DNA from: Armatimonadota bacterium
GTDB taxonomy: Bacteria; Armatimonadota; DTGP01; JAKQQT01
DNA: 64,000 nucleotides
Assembly (NCBI GenBank): GCA_036504855.1
Contig: DASXUL010000075.1
Span: 12,655 to 76,654 of the forward strand
Reading direction: 5' to 3'
The position numbers and the translations under genes were made by a program. Positions within the stretch are counted from its first letter, which is position 1; each line of letters starts with the position of its first letter. Of the stretch, positions 525 through 40,253 are shown in pieces. The notes beneath the pieces were generated by a model, which was not told the origin of the DNA, searched no databases, and saw only the letters and a list, made by a program, of their open reading frames with translations.

Positions 525-784
525 ACCCAACGCGCTTCTCCCTCGTCTGGCAGGACGAGGAGAAGCCCTTATCCAACCCTGGCTCGGCTAAGATGTTCGA
601 GCCACGATTCCGCACCGTTCCGCCGGCGATGGGCCGGCGGAACGGGAGCGGACCAATCAGAACCAGCACCGGGCGCGTAACCGCCCCACGAGATCTCGCC
701 CCCCGGCGGGCGATGAGAGAAAGATTGCTTACCGCATACCCTACCCGCTTGGGCGTGTATCGCGATGGTGCGGAGTATAAACCT

Positions 785-1612
785 ATGAAAAAGCGAGGCT
801 TCACGCTGATCGAGCTGTTGGTGGTCATCGCCATCATCGCGATCTTGGCGGCCATTCTGTTCCCTGTATTTGCTAAGGCCCGTGACCGGGCCATGCTGAG
901 CACCTGCTTGTCCAACAACAAGCAGCTCGGCACCGCGTTCGCCATGTATCTCGGCGATACGGATAGTAGAGAGCCGTTCTGGGCCGACGGCAACAGACCG
1001 CCGGCGCCCTTCACAACCATTACCCACGCGGACGGCTCCACGGAGACCCCCTCTCGCACCACCTGGGACGTGTACATCTGGAGGTACGTGAACAATAAGA
1101 CCGTGTTCACTTGTCCGAAGAACACGTCGAAGTGGGGCAAGGCTCTGGGCGGCACCGCCAACCCGATCCGCTCATATTCCTTCCCGCAGAACATCAACGG
1201 CATTCTGGTGGGCCGCATCAAGAACCCCGCCAAGACCGTTCAGCTCTTTGAGAAGGGCTCCGAGGTTTGCGGTGTAACCTCCGACGCGCCTGGCGAGTAT
1301 TTCGGCCAGACCGTCAGCGGCTATACGGATATCACCAAGTCCAGCGCCAACGAGGCCGACTGGAAGCTGTTCCACGGACGCGGCAAAGTGTTCCTCTTTG
1401 TGGACGGGCACGTCGCCTGGTATCCGGTTTGGACGAGCAAGACAGCGTTCAACAACGATAACCCGTTCGGCTACTACTTCCCGAACTCCGGCGCCTCCGG
1501 CGGCTGGCCGAAGGGCGCTGCCGGCATGGGCTACTGCGGCCCGCTGGACAGCCTGCACGCCGGCGACGCAGCAAGCGGTCCTTCCGAGCCTGGCGCCAAC
1601 CTGCCCGACTAA
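785..1612 (+). CDS. prepilin-type N-terminal cleavage/methylation-domain protein, H-X9-DG (DUF1559) family
   Basis: ATG at 785 gives [36 protein letters not shown], a class III signal / pseudopilin N-terminus. Near the C-terminus, '[18 protein letters not shown]' gives an exact H-X9-DG. The ORF-track start at 593 is an upstream extension. Confidence 0.8.
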
Positions 1613-5936: not shown

Positions 5937-7079
5937 CTACATCCCCGGATACGGCCCCACGGCCTTCTCCTCATAGAGCAGCGTGGTGGATCCCAGGGTG
6001 ATGACGCAGCCGCCCGCCAGCCGGGTTGCGCGGACTGGTTGGCCGTTGACGGCGGGCGGGTTCTGCGCGTCCAGGGCCATCAGCACGCGTTCGGAGCCGC
6101 GATCCTCGATCACGGCCTGCTCCGGGGAGACGCCGGGGTCCTTGAAGAGGGTGATCTCACATTTCGGGCTGCTGCCGAGGCGCGTCCGCTGCTCGTAGAG
6201 GATGAACTGTTTGCCCGCCAGCGGACCGGATGTAACGCTGAGCCAGGCCTCCTTGCGCATCTGGTCTACCAAACCGATGGCGAGGCCGGCCGCCACGCCG
6301 AGCACGGTGATGCCCACGGCGCGGCTCATGGTTCCGGTATCGCCGGCGCCGAACCGCGTCACCATGCCGATGGGGTCGAACATCACGCCGGCGGCGAAGC
6401 CGCCGATGAGCCCGCCCAGCACTCCGTTCACGACGCGCTTGCCGGAGCCGCGCCCGATCCCCTGCCCCAGTCCGATGCAGGTCCCCACGATGGACCAGCC
6501 CACGATGCGCGCCAGCATGACGTTGGGCAGCGATGGCTGGCCGCTGCCGATGAGCACGCCGAAGCAAAGTTGTCCGATGGCGCCGCCCACGAAGCCGCCG
6601 CCGGCTCCAATGGCGAGGCCGACGAGGGCGGCCATGGCGGCCTTCTGGAAGGCGCGCGCCTCGATGCCCTCGGCGGCGCCCAGGCACATGCCGATGACGC
6701 CGCCCATGAGCGCGCCAAACCCGCCCATCGCCGCGATCATCTGCCCCATGCTGGTAGTCTCGGACTGCCAGCCCACCATCGCTTCGCTGAGGGCCCACGC
6801 CACCGCTCCGCCAACCAGCCCGGCAATGGCGGACGGGGCCAGCGCCTGCGCGGAGACGCCCGAGGGGTACTGCGTCTTCGTCTTCCCAGGCCCGTAGCCC
6901 ATCGGCCCCGGAACCATGGGACGGGGCGGCGCCGCTGGACGGTCTGGCGCGTTGCGCAGGTCGTCGGCGGTAATGACGATGCGGTTGGCGCCGGGCGTGG
7001 GGGCTTCCGCCTCCGGCGCCGGCGGTTTCGGCTGTTCATCATCGCCGTCGAACGATATCTCCACGCGGTTGTGGCTCAT
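5937..7079 (-). CDS. FHA-domain protein with a Gly-rich (glycine-zipper) multi-TM core; last gene of the Ubl-conjugation locus
   Basis: 380 aa. The centre is a GxxxG-rich hydrophobic block (GGFGALMGGVIGMCLGAAEG...). The C-terminal ~100 aa match the FHA pattern (GSSPKCEITL...VSPEQAVIE...). Confidence 0.55.
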   Translation of the reverse strand: MSHNRVEISFDGDDEQPKPPAPEAEAPTPGANRIVITADDLRNAPDRPAAPPRPMVPGPMGYGPGKTKTQYPSGVSAQALAPSAIAGLVGGAVAWALSEAMVGWQSETTSMGQMIAAMGGFGALMGGVIGMCLGAAEGIEARAFQKAAMAALVGLAIGAGGGFVGGAIGQLCFGVLIGSGQPSLPNVMLARIVGWSIVGTCIGLGQGIGRGSGKRVVNGVLGGLIGGFAAGVMFDPIGMVTRFGAGDTGTMSRAVGITVLGVAAGLAIGLVDQMRKEAWLSVTSGPLAGKQFILYEQRTRLGSSPKCEITLFKDPGVSPEQAVIEDRGSERVLMALDAQNPPAVNGQPVRATRLAGGCVITLGSTTLLYEEKAVGPYPGM

Positions 7080-7095
7080 GGGGCGCCCGCATTCA

Positions 7096-7623
7096 TCAGA
7101 AGAGCTGGATCTCGAGGTCGTCTCGCGCGGGGGCGGCGGCGCCCAGCGTAATGGCCACCTCGGGTTGGAGGATGTTGATATTGCCGACCGGGAGCATGTT
7201 CCGGTTCTGGACGGCCCAGCGCGCCGCGGCGGCGTTGAGCGGGCTCTTGGGGTTGTAGGTCTTGTACTGGATCATGTCGCCGATCTGCACGATGACGTCG
7301 ACCAGCGTCTCGCCGGCGGCCCAATGGTCGCCGATGCAGATGAAGGAGCCGAAGTTGGGGTGCCAGATGGGGGTCTTCAACACGCACTTGGGCTTCTCGC
7401 GCGGGTAGTCCGCGTGCAGGTAGATTTCGGCCACATGCTGACGCGCCGCAACGGGCGCGTTGCGGGTCGAGTCCCACACCAGGCCGGGCAGGTTGAACGT
7501 AACGATGTAGCGTTCGGGCGGGATGCCGGGCGCGGCGGGCTCCACCTTCACGAAGGGGTGTCCGGAAAACTCATTGCGGATCTTCTGCCAGTCCGCCGAC
7601 AGGCGCATCAACCTCGGGTTCAC
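7096..7623 (-). CDS. ubiquitin-conjugating enzyme E2-like (UBC fold) protein, paralog 1
   Basis: 175 aa with the hallmark E2 motif 'WHPNFGSFICIGDHW' (HPN, then the catalytic Cys 7 residues downstream). An upstream YxxxxP segment is present. Confidence 0.7.
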   Translation of the reverse strand: MNPRLMRLSADWQKIRNEFSGHPFVKVEPAAPGIPPERYIVTFNLPGLVWDSTRNAPVAARQHVAEIYLHADYPREKPKCVLKTPIWHPNFGSFICIGDHWAAGETLVDVIVQIGDMIQYKTYNPKSPLNAAAARWAVQNRNMLPVGNINILQPEVAITLGAAAPARDDLEIQLF

Positions 7624-7639
7624 ATGTACCTCAATCTGA

Positions 7640-7745
7640 AGTCATCAGTCGTCAGTAATCAGTATTCAGTCGGAAGGAATGCACGTCAGGATGCTGCCCT
7701 CACGGGCCAGGCCCATTGCTGATGACTGATCACTGACGACTGTGG
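7640..7745. repeat. CAGTC/GACTG stop-rich inverted-repeat element (family copy a)
   Basis: Left arm gtcatcagtcgtcagtaatcagtattcagtc; right arm gctgatgactgatcactgacgactg in inverted orientation around a ~45-nt core. It sits in an intergenic gap inside the Ubl operon. Confidence 0.6.
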
Positions 7746-7752
7746 ACTACGT

Positions 7753-8556
7753 TCACTCATTCTCCAGCAGGACGCGGGCGTCGTCCAGGAAGCCCTCGGC
7801 CTGGCGGAAGGCGCGGCGCATCGCGTCTCCGTAGTTCTGTGCGGCGGCGAAGTCGTTGGCTCCTTCGGCCCGCGCCTCGCGCTGCCAGTTTGTTAGCCCT
7901 TCGGCGTAGGCGGCGGCGGCGTTGTGCAGGGCGTTGGAGAGGCGTCGCGCCTTCGGACCAGTCTGCGCCGCGTCGAAGGCGCTCAGGGCCTGCCGGGCCC
8001 GGTCGTACCGGGCCACAAAATCGCCCAAGTCGCCGCCGGTGTCGACGCTGTTCTGCATCGCGTCGAAGGCCCGCATCACGGTGTCCGCATCGTCCTGAAA
8101 GTTCTCCGCGCGCTCCGCCGGACGGCGCTCCGGCGCGAAAGGCGATGGCTGAACCGCCGGCTGCGGGACCGCCGGAGCGGGAACCGGTTCCGGCGGCGCC
8201 AGGGTAACTGGCTGCGAGGCGGGACGGTTCATCGCCAGCACAAACACTATTAGTATGACCGTCGTCGCCGCAAGCGAGGTTCCGATCCAGACCGCTGGCC
8301 TTGCCGCGCGCCGGGCGCGCGGCCCCGGACCCGCGGCGCCCCCGTTCGTTGCATCTCTCTCAGCGGGCGCGCGGGGGGCCGGCGCGCTGGAGCAGCCGAA
8401 GGTGGTGCAGCCGCCGTTCTCGTTCCAGCATGCCTCGTGGTGCGCGATGGCGCACGCCCCGCACACGTGCACGGGCACGCCGGGCTTGATGGGCGTCTGG
8501 CAGTACGGGCAGGTCTTCCCGATGGCGGCCTGGCCGGTATCGGTATCGGTGTTCAA
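7753..8556 (-). CDS. membrane protein with an N-terminal RING/treble-clef-like binuclear zinc finger (ZnF-A), one TM helix and a C-terminal helical domain
   Basis: 'GKTCPYCQTPIKPGVPVHVCGACAIAHHEACWNENGGCTTFGC'; TM 'AVWIGTSLAATTVILIVFVLAM'; Pro-rich linker. Confidence 0.6.
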   Translation of the reverse strand: MNTDTDTGQAAIGKTCPYCQTPIKPGVPVHVCGACAIAHHEACWNENGGCTTFGCSSAPAPRAPAERDATNGGAAGPGPRARRAARPAVWIGTSLAATTVILIVFVLAMNRPASQPVTLAPPEPVPAPAVPQPAVQPSPFAPERRPAERAENFQDDADTVMRAFDAMQNSVDTGGDLGDFVARYDRARQALSAFDAAQTGPKARRLSNALHNAAAAYAEGLTNWQREARAEGANDFAAAQNYGDAMRRAFRQAEGFLDDARVLLENE

Positions 8557-8590
8557 GCTGGTTTCATTCGCCTAGCCCGTCCGCAACTCC

Positions 8591-9376
8591 CTAGAAGAGC
8601 GAGCGGGCGATGAAGAGCAGGCCCAGCACGAGGGCCACGATATTCAGGGTGTTGGCGGTCCGGGCAGCGGAGATCGCGCCCATGAAATCGCCAACCGTCG
8701 CCCGGCTGCGCGCCGTGGCGGAAAAGCAGATGCTGGCGACGCCAATCGGCAGGCAGCAGAATATGGTGACGAGGATGCTCTCCACCATATGGTCTTCCAC
8801 GCGCACCGGAGCGGCGTAAGGGTAGCCCGCGGGCGAGTTCCGGCCCTGCCAGGTTGGCGACACGGGCGGTGACCAACCGTACGCGGGCGGCGGCGCGCCG
8901 AACGTCTGAGGCGTTGGCGCGGCGGCCGCCCCGGCGCACCCAAAGGTCGTGCATCCGTTGTTCGCCCGCCAGCACTCTTCGTGGTGGGCCATCCCGCAGA
9001 TGGCGCACGCGCGCGCGGCCACCCCTGGTTTGATAGGCGTCTGGCAGTACGGACATGTTTTACCCACTGCATCGACCGGCGGCGCGGAAGGCATCGGCGG
9101 AGGCGGGGCGGGTCGCGCCGCCGGCTGGGGGGCGGGCTCCGGGTCCGCCGGCCGGAAGACGCGGGCGATCTGCGCGTGGACCTCGGACTCCGTGGCCGGC
9201 CGGACCGACAACTGGTAGCGCGTTTTCAGCAGCGCCAGCGTTCCGGCGGCCTCCACCGCGCCGGGATCCGCCGCAAGAATGGTCAGCAACGTGCCGTCCA
9301 GCGCCAGCGGGGCCACGCGATTGTATTCGCAGAACGGCCGGCGGACGATGTCTCTCAGTTGTGTGGAGGGCTGCAT
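8591..9376 (-). CDS. GspE-N-like domain + RING-like zinc finger (ZnF-B) + C-terminal CD225/dispanin (IFITM-like) membrane domain
   Basis: 'GKTCPYCQTPIKPGVAARACAICGMAHHEECWRANNGCTTFGC'. The C-terminus 'ILVTIFCCLPIGVASICFSATARSRATVGDFMGAISAARTANTLNIVALVLGLLF' fits the CD225 consensus. The N-terminal ~85 aa resemble the T2SS-E N-terminal domain. Confidence 0.6.
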   Translation of the reverse strand: MQPSTQLRDIVRRPFCEYNRVAPLALDGTLLTILAADPGAVEAAGTLALLKTRYQLSVRPATESEVHAQIARVFRPADPEPAPQPAARPAPPPPMPSAPPVDAVGKTCPYCQTPIKPGVAARACAICGMAHHEECWRANNGCTTFGCAGAAAAPTPQTFGAPPPAYGWSPPVSPTWQGRNSPAGYPYAAPVRVEDHMVESILVTIFCCLPIGVASICFSATARSRATVGDFMGAISAARTANTLNIVALVLGLLFIARSLF

Positions 9377-9389
9377 GGCGGTATGTGAA

Positions 9390-10004
9390 TCAGTATGAAC
9401 TGGACCTAGCGGCGGCGATGACCGCTATCACCCCAATAAGCCCGCCGAATAGGAGCGAAAGGGCGAAGAACACGATGGCCCACGTTCTCCAAACGTTCTG
9501 AGTGGCCTGCATTTCCTGAACGGAGCTGAACCGGCCGCTTTCCCAGGCCCAGCGGTTGCCCATTACGCCGCTGACGATGGCCACGACGAGACCGATGTAT
9601 GGCACGAGCGCGAGCAGTGTCCAGTAGGCGCGGTGATTGAGCCCCCAGATCCAACTGAACATGAAGGCGCCCCAGTTCCAGCCGCCCAGGTCCGCCGCCG
9701 TGGGCTGGCCTCCCGCGTAGCTTCCCGCGGCGTAGTTGTAGCCCTGCGCGCTTGGCGGCGCTTGGTATCCGCCCGGAGCCTGATATCCCGGGGGAGACGG
9801 TTGGTATCCGAACGTGGTCGCGGCGGCGCCCGCGGCGCGCGGGCAGCCGGGCCTCGTGCAGCCGGCATTCGCCTTCCAGCAGTCTATGTGGTGCGGCGTG
9901 TAGCATGATTCGCACACGTACACCGCGCCGCCGGGCTGCAGCGCGGCATGGCAGAACGGACAGGCCTTTCCAACGACATCCGGTCCGGCGATCATCTGTG
10001 GCAT
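9390..10004 (-). CDS. RING-like zinc finger (ZnF-C) + Gly/Tyr/Pro-rich linker + 2-TM C-terminal anchor
   Basis: 'GKACPFCHAALQPGGAVYVCESCYTPHHIDCWKANAGCTRPGC', followed by PGYQAPGGYQAPP repeats and two hydrophobic helices. Confidence 0.6.
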   Translation of the reverse strand: MPQMIAGPDVVGKACPFCHAALQPGGAVYVCESCYTPHHIDCWKANAGCTRPGCPRAAGAAATTFGYQPSPPGYQAPGGYQAPPSAQGYNYAAGSYAGGQPTAADLGGWNWGAFMFSWIWGLNHRAYWTLLALVPYIGLVVAIVSGVMGNRWAWESGRFSSVQEMQATQNVWRTWAIVFFALSLLFGGLIGVIAVIAAARSSSY

Positions 10005-10047
10005 GAGGGATACTCATTTCTGCCCTAGGGGCGTTGTTGGGCGGGCG

Positions 10048-18219: not shown

Positions 18220-20825
18220 TGGCAGGAGGCGATGCAATGTCGCGGGCACTAGTCGAAATTCAGTCGGGTTTGGGCGCTTGGGACGGCGAGGAACGCGATG
18301 CGTTGATTCCCATCGGCGCCGCCATGGAAGCGTTGCTGGGTGAGATACCCGAGGAGCACGACGACACCGAAGCCTTGCTGATGCTGGCAGTCGATGGCTT
18401 GCAGACCCTCTACGTTGGCGGGTGCGATGACCCCGCGGCCCTGACGGAGAGCATCGTGGCCGCCGTGGCCGCCGTGGCGGTGGGCATCGCCGCCAGCCCC
18501 GAAGGGACCTCCAGCCCGATTCTTTGCCTTGCCGGACGGTCGCTGTGCGCTGCCCTCGGGCGAGACGGGTTTGCCTGGGACGATGGGAACGAGGAAGACG
18601 CCGCGAATCCATCCGGTTCCGACGACGAGGTGGAGCGCAACGAAGCGGCGAGCCCCGCGCATATCTATGCGGAACCGCAGACGCTAGACGACGCTGCCTC
18701 GCTGCTTGTATTGTTGGAGCCGGCGGACCGCGGCGCTCTCGATACGTTGCAGACGGGTTTGCAGAAGCTGGCCGGCGGCCTGCCGCCCTCCGTGCGGCCG
18801 TCGGTGGAGGCCGCTTTGGCCGTGATCCGGCAGGTTTCCTCCGGCCAGTGCGCGGACTTGGAAGGCGCGATGGCGGATGCGGGACGGCATCTCGAAGAGG
18901 CGATGGTCGCCGCGGAAGACGCCGAGATGGCACCGGCCGCGCCGCCGGTTGCGCCGCTGCCAACTCCGGCGCCCCCCGCGCCCGAGGCGGCCGCCCCCGC
19001 GCCGGCCCTTCCGCCGGTGGACGATGGCGGCGACGACATTCTGCCGCAGGACGCGGACCGCGCGCTGCTGGCGGACTTCGTGACGGAGTGCAAGGAACTC
19101 GTTGAGGGAGCCGAAGCCGCCCTTCTGACGATCGAGATGGACCCCGATGACGTGGAGGCCATCAACACGGTGTTCCGGGCCTTTCATACCATCAAGGGCA
19201 CTTCCGCCTTTCTGGGACTCACCCGGATGTCTGAGCTCGCGCACCGCGCGGAGAACATGCTGTCTCGCATCCGCGACAAGGTGATCCGGTGTACGGGCGG
19301 CTATGCCGACCTGGCGTTGCGAAGCGTAGACATGCTGGGCGACCTTGTGCAGGCCTTGCAGAATAACCTCGATGGCAGCCCGACCGGCAAGCCAGCGGGC
19401 CTGGACGAACTGATGCACACGCTGGCCGATCCGGAGGCCGCCGGCGTTAACCACCTCTCCTCCGACGGCTACGACGACATCGCCCGCGCGGAAGAGACTG
19501 CCCCTTCGAACGGCGTCGCCGCTGTGCCCGAAGCGGCTTCAGAAGCGCGTTCCGCTGCCGCCGAGGCCGCCCGCGTTGAAGCGCCGCCCGCAACGGACGG
19601 CGGCGCCGCGGCGCGTCCGCAGCGCGCCAAGGTGAGCGAGCGGTCTGATGACTCCTCCGTGCGGGTGCGAACCGACCGGCTGGATCGCCTGATCGAAATG
19701 GTTGGCGAGTTGGTGATCGCCCAGTCCATGGTCGCCCAGGACCCAATCGTGGTCATGGGCGGCCATCTGGACCTCACTCGCAAGGTCGCCATGACCGGCA
19801 AGATCGTCCGCGAGCTACAGGACCTCAGCATGTCCATGCGCATGGTCCCGCTGAAAGCCACCTTCCAGAAGATGGCCCGGCTCGTTCGCGACCTGGCGTA
19901 CAAGAGCGGCAAACTGGTGGAGTTCAAGTCAGACGGAGACGAGACGGAAATCGACCGCAACATGGTCGACATCATCGCCGAGCCGCTCGTCCACATGGTC
20001 CGTAACGCCGCCGATCATGGCGTTGAGGCGCCGGAAGTGCGAGAGGCCAGCGGGAAACCGCGCACGGGCGTGGTGCATCTCTCCGCATTCCACACGGGCG
20101 GCAACGTGGTGGTGCAGATCAAGGACGACGGCAAGGGACTCAACCGCGATCGCATCATCCAGAAGGCGATAGAGAAGGGCCTGATTGACTCCGAGAAGGG
20201 CCTCACCGACGCCGAGGCGTACGATCTCATCTTCGCCCCCGGCTTCTCGACGGTGGATAAGGTGACCGAGGTCTCCGGACGCGGCGTGGGCATGGACGTG
20301 GTCCGAAAGGGCGTCGAGGCCCTGCGCGGGCGTGTGGACATTTCCTCCGAGTCCGGGAAGGGCACGACCTTCCAGCTCCGGCTCCCGCTGACGCTGGCCA
20401 TCACAGACGGCATGCTGGTGAAGATCGGCGAGGACCGTTACATCGTGCCTACCGTGAACATCCACCTCTCGTTCCGTCCGGAGGCGTCCGCGCTTTCGAC
20501 AGTGGCCGGACGCGGCGAGTTGGTGATGCTGCGCGGCGAGTTGATGCCCATCTTCCGCCTGCATCGCCTGTTTGACATCCGCGGCGCGGTTGAAGACCCC
20601 ACGAAGGGCCTGCTGGTAGTGATCGGCAACGAGGGGCGCCGATGCGCCCTGTTGGTGGACGAGCTGTTGGGCCAGCAGCAGGTGGTTGCGAAGGCTCTGG
20701 GGAACGGAATGGGCAAGGTGCAAGGCGTGTCCGGCGGCGCCATCCTGGGGGATGGCCGCGTGGGCCTGATCCTAGACACCACGGAATTGGTGGCGCTGGC
20801 GCGCCAGAGCCGTTCCGGCGTGTAG
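18216..20825 (+). CDS. cheA: chemotaxis histidine kinase CheA with a ~280-aa acidic/Ala-Pro-rich N-terminal extension ahead of the HPt domain
   Basis: HPt 'FRAFHTIKGTSAFLG'. Dimerisation domain, HATPase domain and a C-terminal CheW-like domain. The start overlaps the cheX stop (ATGA). Confidence 0.85.
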   Translation: MMAGGDAMSRALVEIQSGLGAWDGEERDALIPIGAAMEALLGEIPEEHDDTEALLMLAVDGLQTLYVGGCDDPAALTESIVAAVAAVAVGIAASPEGTSSPILCLAGRSLCAALGRDGFAWDDGNEEDAANPSGSDDEVERNEAASPAHIYAEPQTLDDAASLLVLLEPADRGALDTLQTGLQKLAGGLPPSVRPSVEAALAVIRQVSSGQCADLEGAMADAGRHLEEAMVAAEDAEMAPAAPPVAPLPTPAPPAPEAAAPAPALPPVDDGGDDILPQDADRALLADFVTECKELVEGAEAALLTIEMDPDDVEAINTVFRAFHTIKGTSAFLGLTRMSELAHRAENMLSRIRDKVIRCTGGYADLALRSVDMLGDLVQALQNNLDGSPTGKPAGLDELMHTLADPEAAGVNHLSSDGYDDIARAEETAPSNGVAAVPEAASEARSAAAEAARVEAPPATDGGAAARPQRAKVSERSDDSSVRVRTDRLDRLIEMVGELVIAQSMVAQDPIVVMGGHLDLTRKVAMTGKIVRELQDLSMSMRMVPLKATFQKMARLVRDLAYKSGKLVEFKSDGDETEIDRNMVDIIAEPLVHMVRNAADHGVEAPEVREASGKPRTGVVHLSAFHTGGNVVVQIKDDGKGLNRDRIIQKAIEKGLIDSEKGLTDAEAYDLIFAPGFSTVDKVTEVSGRGVGMDVVRKGVEALRGRVDISSESGKGTTFQLRLPLTLAITDGMLVKIGEDRYIVPTVNIHLSFRPEASALSTVAGRGELVMLRGELMPIFRLHRLFDIRGAVEDPTKGLLVVIGNEGRRCALLVDELLGQQQVVAKALGNGMGKVQGVSGGAILGDGRVGLILDTTELVALARQSRSGV

Positions 20826-20847
20826 CTCCGCCACGTCGTTTCTACCC

Positions 20848-20887
20848 GGAGGCCGCCCAACCCGCCATCAGCGGGTTGGGCGGCCTC
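20848..20887. terminator. rho-independent terminator-like hairpin after cheA
   Basis: GGAGGCCGCCCAACCCGC-catca-GCGGGTTGGGCGGCCTC: a 17-bp perfect stem. Confidence 0.5.
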
Positions 20888-21122
20888 TGCTACATGGCGC
20901 GTCTTGAGCGATTGCCAGATCGCCCATCCGGCCGCCCGTTTGCGCGAGGCATCGGCCGGCGAGCGGCCGGCGGAGGCGCCCTGCGCACCAACGGGTTCCG
21001 GCGCTTCCGGCAGGTGAAGTGATCCACGCGCCCTCCCCGTTTCACCGGTCATTTCGCCGGTTCAGCCTCTCGCCGTCCGGCCCGATAGGTTGTTGTAAGG
21101 TTCGCTTGGCAACCAAGGAGAA

Positions 21123-21674
21123 ATGGTAATGACGCAAACAACCGTCGCCGCCGGCGTACAGCCCGCGCGGAGCAGAGGCCTCGTGGGCGCAGATGGAACA
21201 GGCGGGAAATTCCTGACCTTCTTCCTCGGCTCCGAGGAGTATGGTCTGGAGATCCTCAAAGTGCATGAGATCATCGGGATGATGGCCATCACGCCGGTTC
21301 CGCGCACGCCGGACTTCGTCCGCGGGGTAATCAACCTGCGCGGAAAGGTCATCCCCACGGTAGACCTGCGCCTCAAGTTCGAAATGCCCTCGGTGGAGCA
21401 AACAGACGAGACCTGCATCATCGTGGTGCAGGCCAATACCGTCCAGGTTGGCATAGTAGTGGATCGGGTGTCCGAGGTGATGGACATCGCCGGAAAGGAC
21501 ATCGAGGAGGCGCCGCCTTTCGGCACCGACGTGAACACGGATTACATCCTGGGCATCGGCAAATCGGAAGGCCGCGTGCAGTTGCTTCTCGATATCGACA
21601 AGGTCCTGTCCGGCCAGGACATAGAGGATATCCGCGCGCAGACAGGCTCCGCGGAGTTCGCTTTGGCTGGATAG
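21123..21674 (+). CDS. cheW: chemotaxis coupling protein CheW
   Basis: CheW-domain signature (FLTFFLGSEEYGLEILKVHEI...). AAGGAG RBS. Confidence 0.8.
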   Translation: MVMTQTTVAAGVQPARSRGLVGADGTGGKFLTFFLGSEEYGLEILKVHEIIGMMAITPVPRTPDFVRGVINLRGKVIPTVDLRLKFEMPSVEQTDETCIIVVQANTVQVGIVVDRVSEVMDIAGKDIEEAPPFGTDVNTDYILGIGKSEGRVQLLLDIDKVLSGQDIEDIRAQTGSAEFALAG

Positions 21675-34831: not shown

Positions 34832-35026
34832 TGTGAGTTCCCCCTAGACGGTTGAGGCGCCGAGCTTACGCGACTCTGGAATGCCCCCAGCCCGGCTTGC
34901 CATCCAGTCTAGCGACCGCTCCGGCGGGCCGCACAGCGCGCGGCGATGGCTCCGCGTTCTCACCTCGCCCCGCGCTAGACTGTTCCTATTGCGCGACCAA
35001 TGGGCCGCGCCAAAGGAGCATACGAC

Positions 35027-36763
35027 ATGCGAATGAGCCATCACTTCGGGGAGACGTTGCGGGCGGCGCCGGGCGATGCGGATGTGGTTGGACATCAACT
35101 ATTGCTGCGGGCCGGCTACATCCGCCCGCTGGCGGCCGGCATCTTCAGCTACCTGCCGCTGGGCCTGCGCGCCATGCGCAACATCGAGGCGATCATCCGC
35201 CAGGAGATCGAGGCCATCGGCGGGCAGGAAGTCTCCATGCCGGTGGTCCACCCGGCCGAGGTCTGGCGGGAAACGGGACGCTGGCAGGAGATCGGCGAGG
35301 AGATGGCGCGATTCAAGGACCGCGCCGGCCGCGACATGGCGCTGGCGATGACCCACGAAGAAGTGGTGGCCGACCTCGTTCGTCGCGAGGTTCACTCGTA
35401 CCGGCAGCTCCCCATGCTGATCTACCAGATACAGACGAAGTTCCGCGACGAGCGACGGCCCCGCGCCGGCCTGATCCGGGTGCGCGAGTTCACGATGAAG
35501 GACTCCTATAGCCTGGATGCGGACGATGAGGGGCTGGCGACGCAGTACGCGCGGCACCTGGAAGCCTACCATCGCATCTTCCAGCGAGTGGGCCTGCCGA
35601 ACGTCATCGCCGTTTGCTCCGACACCGGGATGATGGGCGGCAAGATCGCCCACGAGTTCATGTACCTCACGGAGATCGGGGAAGATACCCTGGCGCTGTG
35701 CGATGCCTGCGGCGCTTCCGCGAACCTTCAGGTGGCGTCTTTCCGCAAGCCCGCCGCCGTCCCCGAGGCGCTCCGGCCGTTGGAGAAGGTGGCCACGCCG
35801 GGAACGACCAGCATCGAGTCGCTGGCCGCCTTCCTGGGCGTGCCCGCCGAACGGACCGCCAAGGCCGTGTTCTTCACCGCCAGCCTGCCGGACCCGGAAC
35901 CCAAGGCGGCCGGCGCATCGCGCGACGCGCTGCTGATGGCGCTGGTTCGCGGCGACATGGACGTTAACGAAACGAAGCTCGCCAACGCGTCCGGCGCGCG
36001 CTCCTTGCGGCCCGCCACGGAGGCGGAGATCCGGGCAGCCGGCGCCGTTCCGGGCTACGCCTCCCCCATCGGCATGGACCGCGCCAACGCCATAGTCGTC
36101 ATCGACGATCTCGTGGCCGCCTCTCCGAACCTCGTCTCCGGCGCCAACGAGGAGGGGTTCCACTACCTGAACGTGAACGCCGGCCGCGACTATGCGCCGG
36201 ACGCAACGGCGGACATCGCCTCGGCCTGGGAGGGCGCGCCCTGCCTGGAGTGCGGCGCGCCGTTGCGCCTGGTCCGCGGCGTGGAGGTGGGCAACATCTT
36301 CCAGTTGGGCACGCGCTACACCGAGGCCATGGGCGCCACTTTCCTGGATGCGGAAGGCCAGGCGCGTCCGGTGGTGATGGGCTCCTACGGCATCGGCATC
36401 GGCCGCCTGCTGGCCTGCCTCGCCGAGGCGCATCACGACGACCGCGGCCTCACCCTGCCCGCCGCCGTGGCCCCCCACTCCGTTCACCTCGTGCGGTTGT
36501 GCGACAAGGACCCGCAGGTGGAGGCCGCCGCCGAGGAGTTGTACGCCGCCCTCATCGAAGCGGGCGTTGATGCGCTCTACGATGACCGCGACGCCATGGC
36601 CGGTGTGAAGTTCGCGGACGCCGACCTGATCGGCATCCCTCTGCGCGTCACCGTCAGCGCCCGCGCGCTGAAGGCCGGCGGCGCCGAACTGAAGCGCCGC
36701 GCCGAAACGGAAACCCGCATCGTGCCGCTGAATGAGGTGATGGAAGTCGTCAGTCGTCAGTGA
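35027..36763 (+). CDS. proS: prolyl-tRNA synthetase (bacterial type with editing domain)
   Basis: Collinear with bacterial ProRS (MRMSHHFGETLR...HQLLLRAGYIR...FADADLIGIP). The last 5 codons (VVSRQ*) are supplied by a CAGTC repeat element. Confidence 0.85.
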   Translation: MRMSHHFGETLRAAPGDADVVGHQLLLRAGYIRPLAAGIFSYLPLGLRAMRNIEAIIRQEIEAIGGQEVSMPVVHPAEVWRETGRWQEIGEEMARFKDRAGRDMALAMTHEEVVADLVRREVHSYRQLPMLIYQIQTKFRDERRPRAGLIRVREFTMKDSYSLDADDEGLATQYARHLEAYHRIFQRVGLPNVIAVCSDTGMMGGKIAHEFMYLTEIGEDTLALCDACGASANLQVASFRKPAAVPEALRPLEKVATPGTTSIESLAAFLGVPAERTAKAVFFTASLPDPEPKAAGASRDALLMALVRGDMDVNETKLANASGARSLRPATEAEIRAAGAVPGYASPIGMDRANAIVVIDDLVAASPNLVSGANEEGFHYLNVNAGRDYAPDATADIASAWEGAPCLECGAPLRLVRGVEVGNIFQLGTRYTEAMGATFLDAEGQARPVVMGSYGIGIGRLLACLAEAHHDDRGLTLPAAVAPHSVHLVRLCDKDPQVEAAAEELYAALIEAGVDALYDDRDAMAGVKFADADLIGIPLRVTVSARALKAGGAELKRRAETETRIVPLNEVMEVVSRQ

Positions 36764-37216: not shown

Positions 37217-38416
37217 ATGTGCCAGACTGTGCCACAGAGCTATTCGCCGATACTTATGAGTACTACATTGAACCCTGCCATTGGACTCCTGAATTGGCAT
37301 CCGAGACAGACACTGGCCGAGATGACCGAAATCTACCTAGCGGATGAGCGTCCATGGATCATCGCATACAGTGGCGGCAAAGACTCCACAGCGGTAGTCC
37401 AGCTAGCGTATACGATGCTCTTTCGGTTGCCAGAACAATCCCGCACCAAGTCGATTTCCGTCATCAGCAATGATACCTTGGTCGAGGCACCCCCCGTCGC
37501 CGAGCACCTTCGCTCTTCCCTCGCCTCCATGGAGAGGGCCGCGATCAGGGACCAACTCCCTATTACCTTCGCCGTTACGACCCCAGAGCTCAAGAACCGA
37601 TTCTTTGTCAAGGTCATCGGTCGAGGGTACCCGGCGCCAAATCGCTATTTCCGCTGGTGCACCGACAAGATGAAGATTGGCCCGACCAGTGACTTTATCC
37701 GGCGCAAGATCAGTGAAGACGGCGAAGTCAATATACTTCTGGGGACCAGGCGCGCTGAGAGTTCTCAGAGGGCAAAGAGCATTGATAAGCACAAGGCACA
37801 GCATGGAATGGGTGCGCTGCGCGCCCACCCGAGTCTGGCAGGGGCTAAGGTGTACGCCCCGATTGAATCGTTGGAAACGGACGATGTATGGGCATACCTT
37901 CTAAGCTACCCGCCACCTTGGGACAAGCCGAATCGGGATCTCTGGGTCTTGTACGGGAAGGCCAGTGGGGTTGAGTGTCCAATCGTTCTCGACAAGACCT
38001 CTCAACCTTGTGGTGCAGGACGATTCGGGTGCTGGACGTGCACCGTAGTTCAAAAGGACAAGTCCCTTCAAGGTTTGGTTGACAATGGAGAGGAGACGCT
38101 CGAACCATTACTCGATTTCCGTGATTGGCTTAAGGGCTACCGTGATGACGTGAGTGTTCGCGAACCAACACGACGCAACGGGCGGCCAGGACCCGGACCG
38201 TTTACTCTTGCGGCACGGCAGACCATCTTGAACCGCCTAGTTCTGGCAGAACAGGAATCTGGGTTGATTCTACTGCACCCCGACGAACTAGAGGCAATCG
38301 CCGATCTATGGAGGGAAGATGGATTCGACGGCGAGATCTCGCCGAGCTCGCCACGCTATGGGGTTCCTAACGGAGGGCTAGAGGAGCGCAATCTACAGGA
38401 GGCTACCTACCGATGA
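37217..38416 (+). CDS. PP-loop ATP-pyrophosphatase, PAPS-reductase/DndC-like, with a C-terminal Cys cluster
   Basis: PP-loop 'IIAYSGGKDSTAV'. 'PCGAGRFGCWTCTVV' Cys motif as in DndC-type enzymes. Lower GC (~52%). Confidence 0.6.
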   Translation: MCQTVPQSYSPILMSTTLNPAIGLLNWHPRQTLAEMTEIYLADERPWIIAYSGGKDSTAVVQLAYTMLFRLPEQSRTKSISVISNDTLVEAPPVAEHLRSSLASMERAAIRDQLPITFAVTTPELKNRFFVKVIGRGYPAPNRYFRWCTDKMKIGPTSDFIRRKISEDGEVNILLGTRRAESSQRAKSIDKHKAQHGMGALRAHPSLAGAKVYAPIESLETDDVWAYLLSYPPPWDKPNRDLWVLYGKASGVECPIVLDKTSQPCGAGRFGCWTCTVVQKDKSLQGLVDNGEETLEPLLDFRDWLKGYRDDVSVREPTRRNGRPGPGPFTLAARQTILNRLVLAEQESGLILLHPDELEAIADLWREDGFDGEISPSSPRYGVPNGGLEERNLQEATYR

Positions 38417-38919
38417 CCGCAGATCAAGATTGTGACAGGCGAGACGGCTGGTTTGAATTTGGCCAGCAGCTTAAGTTGCGGGCAACGTGTCCATTCCATA
38501 GCCCTGCGGCAGTGTGGTATTTCCTATCAGTTATACTTGCGGTGAATGCCGTGTCAATCTGGCTATCGTACTCCTCACGGGGGACAGATGTGATTCCGTC
38601 GTCGATTCCCAGGCATATTGCCGTAACGGCGGTGGGGTTGCTTACGGCTGCAGCTGCGGACTTGGTTCTGGAGGCGGATTCGAAGACATCATTGCGAGCG
38701 TTCTGGACTGCCCTACTGATTTTTGGAGTCATCGCCATTGGATTTGCACACACGACCGGGTCCTGGTGGTCGTGGGGAGCAGCTGTTGGCGGTGTAACAA
38801 TCGCCTGCTTCATGTGGTGGTGCAGCACCGGAAACCGCCTGAATCTCCAGGACCGCGCAATCACGCCCCCTGGCGGTGATGGGCCACCCAGCGGAACAAC
38901 CGAAGGATACCAAGTATGA
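38413..38919 (+). CDS. small integral membrane protein (4 predicted TM helices), coupled between the DndC-like and DGQHR genes
   Basis: Overlapping start and stop codons on both sides. Hydrophobic helices. Confidence 0.5.
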   Translation: MTADQDCDRRDGWFEFGQQLKLRATCPFHSPAAVWYFLSVILAVNAVSIWLSYSSRGTDVIPSSIPRHIAVTAVGLLTAAAADLVLEADSKTSLRAFWTALLIFGVIAIGFAHTTGSWWSWGAAVGGVTIACFMWWCSTGNRLNLQDRAITPPGGDGPPSGTTEGYQV

Positions 38920-40229
38920 ACATCGAATCAGCGATATGCCCGTACCTGGCCCCAGCCATCCGGATCGAACAGCCATTGGGTGAGTTCTTTGTGGCGGCGA
39001 TTCCCGCCCGAGTGCTCCTTGCTACGGCGTTCACAAACTACTTTCGTATTCCTAAGAGGGATCCACAGATCGAAGCGTATCCGGCAATCGGGCTGCAGCG
39101 GGCAAAGAGTGATCATCGACTGCGGGAGTTGGAAAGATATATTCAGTCAGTGGATGCTGCCTTTCCGAATTCGATTATTCTCGCAGCGAACGAGGCGAGC
39201 AGTGGGCAGCCGCCAATCCAGGAGTCTGAGCAGTGGAGCATCGTTACTACTGGGAACGAGGGACTGGCACTGCGGATCCCGACGCTTCGCGAAGCTGCTA
39301 GCATTATCGACGGCCAGCACCGCTTAGAGGGGTTCCGAAATGTGCCTGAGGATCAAAAGGGCATGGCACTGCTCTGCGCAGTCTATTTCGACTTGCCTGT
39401 TGCTTACCAAGCATACGTCTTCGCCACGATCAACTTCAACCAGAAGAAAGTGGACCGAAGTCTCGCTTACGACCTATTCGGATATGCGATAGAGAACGAA
39501 CCTCCTAATGCGTGGACCCCGGACGTTCTGGCCGTCTACATAACTCGAAGGCTCAACATGGACCCCGAGTCTCCTCTCCATAGGCGTATCATTGTTGCAG
39601 CCAAGGACTCCGATGCCCTATTCTCGACTCCACTTGGAAAGGGTGAATGGCGCGTATCTACTGCCACAGTCGTAGACGGAGTTCTGAGGTTAGTGTCTGC
39701 ACACCCGTCTCTTGACCGCGATCGCATGCGAACGGCTCCGATCGCCAAGAGAAGCCGACAAATGTTGAGTGTCGACAGCGCACCATTCCGAAAAGCGTTT
39801 CTTGAGGGAAATGACATCCTGGTTTACCTCGCCACTGTCAATTTCCTCAATGCGCTTCAGCATATCGTCTGGGTGGATCAGCCGAGAGAGTCGTTTCTAT
39901 TCAAAACGGTCGGCATTCAGGCATCGTTCGAGCTCTTGGCCGAGTTGATTCCGCTTTGCCTAGCTAACTCGGACTTTCGCTATGATCTTTTCGCGCGGAT
40001 TCTGGAGGGTGTCGGGACCTGTGACTTCTCGCAGCCGTTCTTCCAGCAGTCGTCTTCGGTAGGTCGCATTCGGATATTGCAGTGCCTGCGCTATCTAGTA
40101 GGGCTCGTCGACATTAACGGCCTTCCAGAAAGGGACAACGAGCTGTATCGCGGCGCCCTGAAGAGTAGCCGTCAATCGACCTTTCAGATTCGTGAAAGCA
40201 ATCCCAACCAGGGAAGCTCTAGAGCATAG
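38916..40229 (+). CDS. DGQHR-domain protein (DndB-like family)
   Basis: An explicit 'IIDGQHRLEGF' motif. ~437 aa, matching DndB-family size. Confidence 0.65.
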   Translation: MNIESAICPYLAPAIRIEQPLGEFFVAAIPARVLLATAFTNYFRIPKRDPQIEAYPAIGLQRAKSDHRLRELERYIQSVDAAFPNSIILAANEASSGQPPIQESEQWSIVTTGNEGLALRIPTLREAASIIDGQHRLEGFRNVPEDQKGMALLCAVYFDLPVAYQAYVFATINFNQKKVDRSLAYDLFGYAIENEPPNAWTPDVLAVYITRRLNMDPESPLHRRIIVAAKDSDALFSTPLGKGEWRVSTATVVDGVLRLVSAHPSLDRDRMRTAPIAKRSRQMLSVDSAPFRKAFLEGNDILVYLATVNFLNALQHIVWVDQPRESFLFKTVGIQASFELLAELIPLCLANSDFRYDLFARILEGVGTCDFSQPFFQQSSSVGRIRILQCLRYLVGLVDINGLPERDNELYRGALKSSRQSTFQIRESNPNQGSSRA

Positions 40230-40253
40230 GCGTTCATAGATAGGAGACACGCT

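What the first reader, a model, noticed from the sequence alone, without database searches (positions are those of the whole stretch)
7753..10004. Family of four membrane-anchored proteins sharing a C-P-[YF]-C-x12-13-C-x2-C-x3-H-H-x2-C-W-x3-G-C-x3-G-C zinc-finger; one is fused to a CD225/dispanin domain
The same ~45-residue Cys/His module occurs at the N-terminal or central part of 7753-8556, 8591-9376, 9390-10004 and 15442-17031. It reads GKTCP[YF]CQ..IKP....VC..C...HH.ECW...GGCT.FGC. The count and spacing of ligands (8-9 Cys/His) fit a cross-braced binuclear treble-clef (RING/B-box-like) domain, which is the expected E3 adaptor for the E2s. Each copy is tethered to the membrane by a different anchor: a single TM plus helical domain; a GspE-N-like domain plus a CD225/IFITM-like C-terminus; a Gly/Tyr-rich linker plus 2 TM; a second zinc ribbon plus multi-TM. 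A CD225/dispanin fusion to a putative E3 is, as far as I know, not described.
Basis: partly seen in the sequence, partly recalled or inferred. Interest (0 to 1): 0.8.

Follow-up and report, generated by a model that had tools for sequence, protein, structure and literature searches.

The report
Membrane-anchored bacterial RING finger proteins
Four neighbouring genes in an Armatimonadota genome encode membrane-tethered proteins that share a two-zinc RING-type finger.

Summary
One 40-residue Cys/His motif occurs exactly four times in the six-frame translation, against none in 200 shuffles. All four proteins score above Pfam's threshold for PF14446 (Prok-RING_1). Protein B also carries an MshEN/GspE-N-like domain and a CD225 domain (E 5e-21).

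The genes lie in a 12-gene, one-strand operon: a YukD-like Ubl ending ...EITAG-A, a ThiF E1, two UBC E2s, two JAB peptidases, a trypsin-like protease and an FHA/6-TM protein. The same operon surrounds relatives in Armatimonadota, Bacillota, Acidobacteriota, Chloroflexota and Ignavibacteria: 44 of 73 genome loci, and all five metagenome proteins looked up.

RING-CD225 fusions recur (at least seven instances). CD225 is one of several interchangeable small anchors, alongside RDD, DUF4190 and TM2.

Verdict: these are membrane-tethered E3-like adaptors of a known but biochemically untested bacterial Ubl system. B is a new architecture within a known family. Interest is low to moderate.

The parts
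7753..8556 (-). RING protein A (267 aa): N-terminal Prok-RING_1 module (8392-8511), one TM (aa 91-109, 8230-8286), and a C-terminal region, probably outside the cytoplasm, with no Pfam match
   Evidence: Pfam PF14446, 34.5 bits against a cut-off of 29.1. Motif and TM. Aligns over its full length (29% id, E 2e-29) to the RING+TM+C-terminal part of L007 10735-11805.
8591..9376 (-). RING protein B (261 aa): MshEN/GspE-N1-like alpha/beta domain (aa 2-78, 9143-9373), disordered linker, Prok-RING_1 module (8936-9055), disordered Pro/Gly/Tyr linker, CD225 domain (aa 194-256, 8609-8797)
   Evidence: Pfam: CD225 E 5.3e-21, Prok-RING_1 30.8 bits, MshEN 29 bits. AlphaFold gives three folded domains at pLDDT about 90 separated by linkers with pLDDT below 50. 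Foldseek matches the N-domain to PilB, MshE, PilF and XpsE N-domains. 100% identical to NCBI 'CD225/dispanin family protein [Armatimonadota bacterium]'.
9390..10004 (-). RING protein C (204 aa): N-terminal Prok-RING_1 module (9843-9962), Gly/Tyr/Pro-rich linker, 2-TM anchor beginning 'GGWNWGAF' (aa ~108-195; the two TM cores lie at 9420-9617)
   Evidence: Pfam PF14446, 37.9 bits. TM segments at aa 130-148 and 177-195. The same 'WNWGAF...' anchor appears in P0011, P0014 and P0021. No Pfam match for the anchor.
15442..17031 (-). RING protein D (529 aa): N-terminal Prok-RING_1 module (16822-16941), second C-x2-C-x6-C-x2-C ribbon (aa 216-229, 16345-16386), large Arg-rich region with no Pfam match, C-terminal hydrophobic helices (aa ~400-521)
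Evidence: Pfam PF14446, 39.2 bits. Ribbon. TM segments at aa 477-495 and 503-521, plus Ala-rich hydrophobic stretches.
7096..7623 (-). E2a, UBC-fold conjugating enzyme (175 aa), HPN...C at aa 88-96
   Evidence: Pfam UQ_con E 6e-9. HPNFGSFIC.
14731..15237 (-). E2b, UBC-fold conjugating enzyme (168 aa), HPN...C at aa 86-99
   Evidence: Pfam UQ_con E 7e-11. HPNILPPRRNGGVC.
12274..13512 (-). E1-like adenylating enzyme (412 aa, ThiF fold) with C-terminal CxxC pairs
   Evidence: Pfam ThiF E 5e-54. GAGALG at aa 58; CxxC at aa 191, 329 and 352.
13513..13785 (-). YukD-like ubiquitin-like protein (90 aa) ending ...PEITAG-A
   Evidence: Pfam YukD E 1.8e-12. The C-terminal PEITAG is conserved in six loci and is followed by 0-6 variable residues.
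10048..11217 (-). JAB/JAMM peptidase with one TM (aa 225-243) and a TPR-like tail
   Evidence: Pfam Prok-JAB and JAB. HTHPGLGVFFSEQD motif. TM.
11231..12235 (-). JAB/JAMM peptidase - TM - LysM (334 aa from the ATG at 12235)
   Evidence: Pfam JAB E 4e-11 and LysM E 1e-8. HTHPGFGIFLSRWD. TM at aa 200-218.
13847..14734 (-). Trypsin_2 (DegP-type) serine protease with an N-terminal signal/TM and a C-terminal TM, plus a cytoplasmic tail ending DDLDIELK
   Evidence: Pfam Trypsin_2 E 1e-33. Start TTG 14734 preceded by GGGAGA; TM segments. Tail conserved in six loci.
5937..7079 (-). Six-TM protein with a C-terminal FHA domain; last gene of the operon
   Evidence: Pfam Yop-YscD_cpl and FHA. Six hydrophobic segments. 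Present in nearly every related operon.

Best explanation
A, B, C and D are paralogous members of the known Prok-RING_1 family. Each has a small cross-braced two-zinc (C4HC3) RING-type finger on the cytoplasmic face of the membrane, held there by a different anchor.

They most likely act as E3-type adaptors in the 12-gene Ubl-conjugation operon at 5937-17031, working as follows. A JAB peptidase trims the YukD-like Ubl to expose Gly89 (...EITAG). The ThiF-type E1 activates it and passes it to one of two UBC-type E2s. Each RING then docks E2~Ubl at the membrane, while its variable part selects the target or the location. Those variable parts are the GspE-N1-like protein-binding domain plus a CD225 hairpin in B, an extracytoplasmic domain in A, a WNWGAF 2-TM module in C, and a large cytoplasmic region with a zinc ribbon in D. 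The membrane-anchored JAB peptidases would reverse the mark.

CD225 here is one of several interchangeable small membrane anchors, not a special invention.

Shown here: family membership, fold class, domain architecture, and the conserved operon. Inferred: zinc binding, E2 binding, ligase activity, topology, and targets.
For: - Pfam PF14446 scores above its gathering cut-off in all four proteins.
- The motif occurs 4 times against 0 expected.
- A profile of the four modules finds 4,507 representative clusters, with 1,065 at E<=1e-10. All 150 top hits are Prok-RING_1.
- Eight ligand columns are 97-100% conserved, plus an invariant Trp.
- Degenerate modules lose ligands 2, 5 and 6 together and keep 3, 4, 7 and 8. 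No case of loss confined to 1-4 or 5-8 was seen.
- 133 of 167 family proteins have a TM after the RING and only 12 have one before it.
- The same operon is found around P0003, P0007, P0018, P0004 and P0008. It is also found in 44 of 73 genome loci, with another 13 partial on short contigs.
- RING copy number runs from 1 to 9 per operon, and the accessory domains are shuffled between copies.
- The E2s keep HPN...Cys and the JABs keep HxHx7Sx2D. The Ubl has a conserved ...EITAG followed by variable tails.
- Only the Ubl, the E1 and the two E2s lack TM segments.
Against: - No member of this family or operon has been tested biochemically. The literature I could reach calls RING-containing bacterial operons 'uncharacterized'.
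- The ligand spacing C-x2-C...C-x2-C-x4-H-x2-C is PHD-like. 16 of 150 members also touch the PHD model and 17 touch C1_1. Foldseek matches PHD fingers about as well as RINGs. A non-catalytic reader role is therefore not excluded.
- Canonical RING E2-contact positions could not be checked, because the tools return no coordinates. No conserved basic 'linchpin' follows the last Cys.
- Some strong family members lie outside any Ubl operon within 10 kb either side, for example L033.
Confidence: 0.75

Rival explanations
1. The module is a non-catalytic treble-clef binding domain (a PHD/C1-like 'reader'). It would bind a peptide, the Ubl itself or a lipid head-group, and merely scaffold the machinery at the membrane. 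The E2s would then conjugate without an E3.
For: The ligand spacing is PHD-like C4HC3, and there are weak PHD and C1_1 Pfam hits in 16 and 17 of 150 members. Foldseek matches PHD fingers at rmsd 1.0-1.2 A over about 32 residues. Many operon enzymes, but not the RINGs or the Ubl, carry acidic 'D-phi-D-I-x-L' terminal peptides that need a receptor. There is no conserved linchpin Arg/Lys after ligand 8.
Confidence: 0.13
2. The RING proteins are primarily effectors or substrates. Their membrane modules (CD225, RDD, TM2, DUF4190) would perturb or remodel the membrane, for example in an anti-phage or abortive-infection response. The RING would serve to auto-conjugate or regulate them.
For: CD225/IFITM proteins act on membranes in eukaryotic antiviral defence (background knowledge). 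Other bacterial Ubl operons (Bil, CBASS type II) are phage defences, and RING-containing ones have been predicted to be as well. L004 and L005 have toxin-antitoxin, HEPN or SLFN-like neighbours. RING genes are highly variable in number and in anchor type.
Against: PADLOC has no match for the RING, E2, Ubl or FHA proteins. The operon has conserved housekeeping-like flanks in related Armatimonadota, with Glyco_hydro_3 after the last RING in L001 and L007. The RING proteins are very Lys-poor (1.0-1.3% Lys), which argues against their being the main Lys-linked substrates. The anchors are mostly simple 1-2 TM segments.
Confidence: 0.1
3. The motif is a chance Cys-rich repeat, or two independent zinc ribbons with no RING relationship.
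For: None beyond the presence of CxxC pairs.
Against: 0 matches in 200 shuffles against 4 observed. A curated HMM is passed four times. The fold matches RINGs. Ligands are lost in the cross-brace pattern 2+5+6.
Confidence: 0.01

Closest known systems
Pfam PF14446 'Prokaryotic RING finger family 1' (Prok-RING_1), defined from Burroughs, Iyer and Aravind, Mol Biosyst 2011 (doi 10.1039/c1mb05061c)
   Same: All four proteins pass the model. The C4HC3 ligands, with a longer spacer in the last pair, match the description quoted. The neighbourhood with Ubl, E1, E2 and JAB also matches. From my memory of the Pfam entry and the paper's abstract, bacterial members carry TM helices and YukD-like Ubls were proposed to be conjugated by such systems.
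   Different: Nothing essential differs. I could not retrieve the paper, so I cannot say whether CD225, MshEN-like, RDD or WD40 fusions, or the FHA/trypsin/LysM partners, are described there.
Caldiarchaeum subterraneum Ub/E1/E2/small-RING/Rpn11 operon (Nunoura 2011, PMC3082918; Hennell James 2017, PMC5654768)
   Same: An operon-encoded Ubl, E1, UBC-type E2, small RING protein and JAB-family peptidase. The RING there was reconstituted as part of an active cascade (title and abstract).
   Different: That system is archaeal, uses a soluble RING and a ubiquitin-like rather than YukD-like modifier, has a single RING, and has no membrane proteins, FHA, trypsin or LysM partners.
Eukaryotic membrane RING E3s (HRD1/synoviolin RING-H2; MARCH RING-CH)
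   Different: About 22% identity. Here the RING usually precedes the TM segments. The last ligand pair is C-x4-C, and loop 2 is only 6 residues. No homology exists outside the finger.
CD225/dispanin family (IFITM, PRRT2; bacterial homologues, PMC4488726)
   Same: B's C-terminus passes the CD225 model at E 5e-21 and has the FCCLP motif and two hydrophobic helices joined by a basic loop.
   Different: Described dispanins are small proteins without a RING. Here CD225 is the anchor of a three-domain protein.
Characterised bacterial Ubl systems: Bil, Bub, CBASS Cap2 (PMC10557695, PMC11601596, PMC11601603)
   Same: E1/E2/Ubl/peptidase logic in a bacterial operon. The E1 shows distant PADLOC hits to the Cap2 E1-E2 fusion and to BilD.
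   Different: Those systems lack RING E3s, are largely soluble and are proven phage defences. Here the RING, E2, Ubl and FHA proteins have no PADLOC match.

Membership tests
Prok-RING_1 (PF14446) | Score above the curated gathering cut-off (29.1 bits) | tested here: met
   A 34.5, B 30.8, C 37.9 and D 39.2 bits.
Prok-RING_1 (PF14446) | Eight Zn ligands in C4HC3 order, with a longer spacer in the last pair | tested here: met
   C9, C12, C25, C28, H33, C36, C43 and C48 are invariant in the four copies and 97-100% conserved in 201 family modules. This matches the description quoted.
Prok-RING_1 (PF14446) | Gene neighbourhood with Ubl, E1, E2 and JAB | tested here: met
   Window operon. The same operon occurs in 5 of 5 metagenome look-ups and 44 of 73 genome loci.
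RING superfamily (cross-braced binuclear treble clef) | Cross-brace topology: ligands 1, 2, 5, 6 form one Zn site and 3, 4, 7, 8 the other | tested here: met
   The evidence is indirect. The AF2 model (pLDDT 91.4) superposes on RING-H2 domains at 1.6-2.0 A. Four degenerate modules in two proteins lose ligands 2, 5 and 6 together and keep 3, 4, 7 and 8. No coordinates were available to measure S-S distances.
RING-type E3 ligase (functional class) | Binds a cognate E2 and stimulates Ubl transfer | not testable with these tools
   Only co-occurrence with two UBC-type E2 genes supports this.
RING-type E3 ligase (functional class) | Canonical E2-contact residues: a hydrophobe between ligands 1 and 2, helix and loop-2 hydrophobes, and a linchpin Arg/Lys after ligand 8 | tested here: inconclusive
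   Position 11 (between C9 and C12) is Tyr/Phe in 90% of modules, W37 is invariant and F/Y46 is 85% conserved. Position 49 is variable, so there is no linchpin. Equivalence to E2-contact positions could not be verified without coordinates.
Zinc binding | Two Zn per module | not testable with these tools
   Needs ICP-MS or a structure.
CD225/dispanin (PF04505) | Score above the cut-off (27.1 bits); two hydrophobic helices with a conserved ...F-C-C-L-P... and a basic loop | tested here: met
   74.9 bits, E 5.3e-21, aa 194-256. 'ILVTIFCCLPIG' aligns with six other RING-CD225 proteins. Helices at aa 197-207, 210-227 and 231-260 have pLDDT about 90.
MshEN / GSPII_E_N (PF05157) | Score above the cut-off (23.1 bits) and an alpha/beta fold | tested here: met
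   29 bits, aa 2-78. Foldseek hits to PilB, MshE, PilF and XpsE N-domains have probability 1.0 but weak E-values of 3e-3 to 0.2.
MshEN as c-di-GMP receptor | RLGxx[LVI][LVI]xxG[LVI][LVI]xxxxLxxxLxxQ binding motif (recalled from Wang et al. 2016) | tested here: not met
   No strict or loose match in B. B contains only the alpha/beta half, profile positions 12-88. c-di-GMP sensing is therefore not supported; a protein-binding role is more likely.
B-box | B-box ligand pattern and fold | tested here: not met
PHD finger (PF00628) | Score above the cut-off (24 bits) | tested here: not met
   C scores 13.2 bits, E 0.09. The ligand spacing is PHD-like, and 16 of 150 relatives give weak hits.
Catalogued anti-phage defence systems (PADLOC 2.0) | A match of the system-specific proteins | tested here: not met
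   Only generic E1 and JAB homology was found. There was nothing for the RINGs, E2s, Ubl or FHA protein.

The most novel reading that the evidence does not exclude
The RING-CD225 protein is more than an anchored E3. It would couple Ubl conjugation to an IFITM-like membrane-remodelling hairpin. The operon as a whole (variable RING panel, FHA/6-TM sensor, extracytoplasmic protease, LysM-JAB) would then be an envelope-surveillance or anti-phage system that tags membrane proteins. That would be a bacterial forerunner both of ERAD-type membrane RING ligases and of the ubiquitin-IFITM connection.
Probability: 0.1. Interest if true: 0.65.

Novelty: new member of a known kind. Interest (0 to 1): 0.3.

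Why it matters
The RING-containing bacterial Ubl operons are the one major class of 'eukaryote-like' ubiquitin machinery in bacteria that still has no biochemical characterisation. This window offers a complete, intact example with four RING adaptors.

The survey here shows three things:
- The operon is widespread across several phyla.
- Its core is Ubl-E1-E2-JAB-RING-FHA/TM.
- The RING genes form a variable panel whose accessory domains are shuffled.

That makes the operon a reasonable system for asking how E3 diversification and membrane-localised ubiquitin-like tagging arose. The specific CD225 fusion is a modest addition: a new architecture in a known family, and one anchor among several.

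Tried and rejected
- **Primary paper not retrievable.** Burroughs, Iyer and Aravind 2011, and Burroughs 2012, could not be retrieved by DOI or PMC id. What they say is taken from citing papers and from memory.
- **Failed locus search.** The search for related loci with the 60-module alignment failed for lack of a conserved stretch. It worked with the four-module alignment.
- **No-hit searches.** Rfam found nothing in the window. PADLOC and NCBIfam gave nothing specific for the RING, E2, Ubl or FHA proteins.
- **Invalid column.** My trypsin query was out of frame, so that column of the locus census is invalid and is not used.
- **c-di-GMP sensing rejected.** B's MshEN-like domain lacks the binding motif.
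- **Terminal motif census inconclusive.** The regex census of the acidic terminal 'D-phi-D-I-x-L' motif across all loci gave no clear answer. The motif is present in Armatimonadota/Bacillota-type operons and absent from the minimal Acidobacteriota type, and my regex was too strict for variants such as ILDIDL.
- **Lys depletion not decisive.** The RING proteins are Lys-poor, but so are the E1 and E2b, so this does not discriminate roles.
Full report
**1. The observation**

The window is GC-rich (about 0.65-0.69 around the finding). A regular expression for the motif finds exactly four matches in the six-frame translation, all on the minus strand: 8392-8511, 8936-9055, 9843-9962 and 16822-16941. 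Two hundred block-wise shuffles of the window give none, even with a much looser C4HC3 pattern.

The four 55-residue modules align without gaps, are 47-62% identical and share 19 invariant columns. Two details need correcting. The first spacer is x12 in all four copies. After C-W there are five residues (x3-[GA]-G) before the next Cys, then x4 before the last.

**2. What the module is**

All four proteins pass Pfam PF14446, 'Prokaryotic RING finger family 1', above its curated cut-off. A profile of the four modules, searched against 1.84 billion representative proteins, finds 4,507 clusters at E<=1e-3 and 1,065 at E<=1e-10. Some proteins carry 2-4 tandem copies. All 150 best hits are Prok-RING_1 by Pfam.

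In 201 modules from these hits, C9, C12, C25, C28, H33, C36, C43 and C48 are 97-100% conserved and W37 is invariant. The first His of the HH pair is only 89% conserved, with Tyr in 8%. The ligand set is therefore eight, C4HC3, with a C-x4-C last pair. A review describes prokaryotic RINGs in just these terms.

No solved structure belongs to the family. A profile search of PDB sequences gives only E about 1e-4 matches to RING-H2, PHD and C1 fingers, all of them cross-braced binuclear treble clefs.

An independent, sequence-only test of the cross-brace comes from degenerate copies. Four modules, in two proteins, have lost ligands 2, 5 and 6 together while keeping 3, 4, 7 and 8. No module shows loss confined to ligands 1-4 or to 5-8. 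'Two independent zinc ribbons' is therefore rejected. The numbers are small, and I had no model coordinates.

**3. The anchors**

*Protein A.* RING, one TM (aa 91-109), then a C-terminal region with no Pfam match.

*Protein B.* It has three Pfam domains above threshold: MshEN, Prok-RING_1 and CD225 (E 5.3e-21).
- AlphaFold shows three confident domains separated by disordered Pro-rich linkers.
- The N-domain matches PilB, MshE, PilF and XpsE N-domains. It is only the alpha/beta half and lacks the c-di-GMP-binding motif, so I read it as a protein-binding module.
- The basic loop between B's two hydrophobic helices, and the protein ending right after the last helix, fit an IFITM-like topology of N-in, re-entrant helix and C-out. 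This is inference.

*Protein C.* RING, a Gly/Tyr/Pro-rich linker, then a 2-TM 'WNWGAF' module that recurs in other family members but has no Pfam model.

*Protein D.* RING, a second C-x2-C-x6-C-x2-C ribbon, a large Arg-rich region, then C-terminal hydrophobic helices.

Family-wide, 133 of 167 proteins have a TM after the RING and 12 have one before it. This places the finger in the cytoplasm.

**4. The context**

The four genes belong to a single-strand, tightly spaced 12-gene operon (5937-17031, minus strand) in this order:
- D
- E2b
- trypsin-like protease
- YukD-like Ubl
- ThiF E1
- JAB-TM-LysM
- JAB-TM
- C
- B
- A
- E2a
- 6-TM/FHA protein

. The E2s keep HPN...Cys and the JABs keep HxHx7Sx2D. 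The Ubl ends ...PEITAG-A. Six orthologues share PEITAG followed by 0-6 variable residues, which is the signature of a precursor trimmed to a C-terminal Gly. Eight of the twelve proteins have TM segments; only the Ubl, the E1 and the two E2s are soluble.

**5. Relatives elsewhere**

B is 100% identical to an NCBI protein from an Armatimonadota MAG, named 'CD225/dispanin family protein'. All five homologues I looked up lie in the same operon:
- P0003: MshEN-RING-CD225
- P0007: zinc ribbon-RING-CD225
- P0004: RING-CD225
- P0008: RING-TM2
- P0018: RING-DnaJ-RDD, from Gelria

.

A scan of one genome per species found 73 loci. These come from Bacillota, Armatimonadota, Ignavibacteria, Acidobacteriota, Chloroflexota and Planctomycetota, with weaker matches in Wallbacteria and a deltaproteobacterium. 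Of the 73, 44 carry at least three of Ubl, E1, E2, JAB and FHA. Thirteen carry one or two, mostly on short contigs. Sixteen carry none; seven of those are contigs under 5.1 kb and most of the rest are weak partial matches.

One strong match, L033 from Pygmaiobacter, has no Ubl genes within 10 kb either side. The family is therefore not exclusively operon-bound. As I recall it, the 2011 paper's abstract also says that not all prokaryotic RINGs are Ub-related.

The minimal operon, in Acidobacteriota and Chloroflexota, is Ubl-E1-JAB-FHA/TM-RING-(gap)-E2. Armatimonadota and Bacillota versions expand the RING set to as many as nine, one of them with a WD40 propeller.

Accessory parts are shuffled between RING copies. 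Window A aligns over its full length with a protein in L007 that has the MshEN-like domain in front. In L007 the CD225 domain sits on a separate RING protein. C and D have no full-length counterpart in the fetched loci.

**6. The CD225 fusion**

RING plus CD225 in one protein occurs in P0001 and P0003-P0007, and in a Bacillota genome (L020). It accounts for 4 of the 150 best representatives, against RDD in 10, DUF4190 in 7 and MshEN in 4. The fusion is real and recurrent, but it is one of several interchangeable small anchors. I found no paper describing it.

**7. How it most likely works**

I commit to the reading that these are membrane-tethered RING-type E3 adaptors (confidence about 0.75). 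The proposed sequence is:
- JAB trims the Ubl.
- E1 activates it.
- An E2 carries it.
- The RING docks E2~Ubl at the inner face of the membrane.
- The variable domain chooses the target or the site.
- Anchored JABs reverse the mark.

The extracytoplasmic protease, the LysM domain and the FHA/6-TM protein tie the system to the envelope and probably to phospho-signalling. Every step beyond domain identity and gene association is inference.

Two rivals remain. The first is a non-catalytic PHD-like reader or scaffold. It is supported by the PHD-like ligand spacing, the weak PHD and C1 hits and the lack of a linchpin residue. The second is that the RING proteins are effectors or substrates in a defence system. 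There are no PADLOC hits, and the RING proteins are very Lys-poor.

**8. Comparison with what is known, and novelty**

The family, its C4HC3 finger and its Ubl/E1/E2/JAB neighbourhood were described computationally in 2011 and are curated in Pfam. Recent experimental papers still list RING-containing bacterial Ubl operons as uncharacterised.

The closest functional precedent is the Caldiarchaeum E1/E2/small-RING cascade. The closest structural match is the HRD1 RING-H2 domain.

The finding is therefore a correct rediscovery of a known family. The modest additions are the RING-CD225 and MshEN-like-RING architectures and a picture of RING-panel diversification. Novelty: new member of a known kind. 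Interest: 0.3.

Noticed in passing
window 13513-13785 (-); L001 4570-4839, L004 3868-4155, L005 6037-6312, L007 3222-3491, L009 4743-5012: The YukD-like Ubl has a conserved C-terminal ...PEITAG followed by 0-6 variable residues (A; none; TGKQGY; YM). This suggests a precursor that a JAB peptidase trims to a C-terminal Gly.
   Followed up: partly
window: E1 N-terminus (13512 downward, 'DDLDITL'), JAB-LysM N-terminus ('EDVDLDITL'), JAB1 N-terminus ('DDIDIRL'), trypsin-like C-terminus ('DDLDIELK', ~13847), E2a C-terminus ('DDLEIQLF', ~7096), E2b C-terminus ('DISISL'); also L001, L004, L005: A short acidic alternating motif (D/E-phi-D/E-I-x-L) sits at the extreme N- or C-termini of the E1, the JABs, the E2s and the cytoplasmic tails of the trypsin-like and M48 proteases. 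It is absent from the RING proteins and the Ubl. It looks like a shared docking peptide (SIM-like, or RING- or FHA-binding). It is present in Armatimonadota/Bacillota-type operons and absent from the minimal Acidobacteriota type.
   Followed up: partly
window 5937-17031 (operon proteins): The RING proteins are strongly Lys-depleted: 1.0-1.3% Lys and K/(K+R) 0.11-0.22, against 0.22-0.55 in nine other genes of the window. Most of their few Lys lie inside the RING module. E2b has a single Lys, while the Ubl is the most Lys-rich operon protein at 5.6%.
   Followed up: partly
L007 1794-19459 (Logan SRR19732722 contig): A related operon carries nine Prok-RING_1 genes, including a 745-aa RING-WD40 propeller protein, RING-CD225 and MshEN-RING as separate genes, and an M48 peptidase.
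   Followed up: partly
L035, L045, L063 and about 35 other Acidobacteriota/Chloroflexota loci: These loci carry a minimal version of the operon: Ubl-E1-JAB-FHA/TM-RING-(~1 kb unassigned gene)-E2. This defines the conserved core and shows that the FHA/TM protein is a core component.
   Followed up: partly
L004 10001-11072: The RING-CD225 gene is immediately followed by a DUF2752 gene. HEPN/nucleotidyltransferase and SLFN/AlbA_2 genes lie downstream.
   Followed up: no
L033 9995-10789 (Pygmaiobacter sp., 2.56 Mb contig): A strong Prok-RING_1 protein (265 aa) has no Ubl, E1, E2 or JAB gene within 10 kb either side. Its neighbours include a 701-aa N-terminally anchored protein that I take, from its sequence only, to be penicillin-binding-protein-like, and ABC-transporter-like genes. 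The family is therefore not strictly operon-bound.
   Followed up: partly
window 37217-41616 (+): A low-GC islet (0.54-0.55 against about 0.65) lies next to an ORF (35000-36763) that I read, from sequence only, as prolyl-tRNA synthetase. It encodes a PAPS-reductase/DndC-like protein, a small TM protein, a DndB/DGQHR protein, a SAM methyltransferase and an FRG-domain protein. It is probably a horizontally acquired DNA-modification or defence cassette.
   Followed up: partly
window 17182-21674 (+): A chemotaxis operon (CheY, CheX, CheA, CheW) is transcribed divergently from RING gene D, across a ~150-bp intergenic region.
   Followed up: no
window 593-1612 (+): A protein carries a prepilin-type N-terminal methylation motif.
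   Followed up: no
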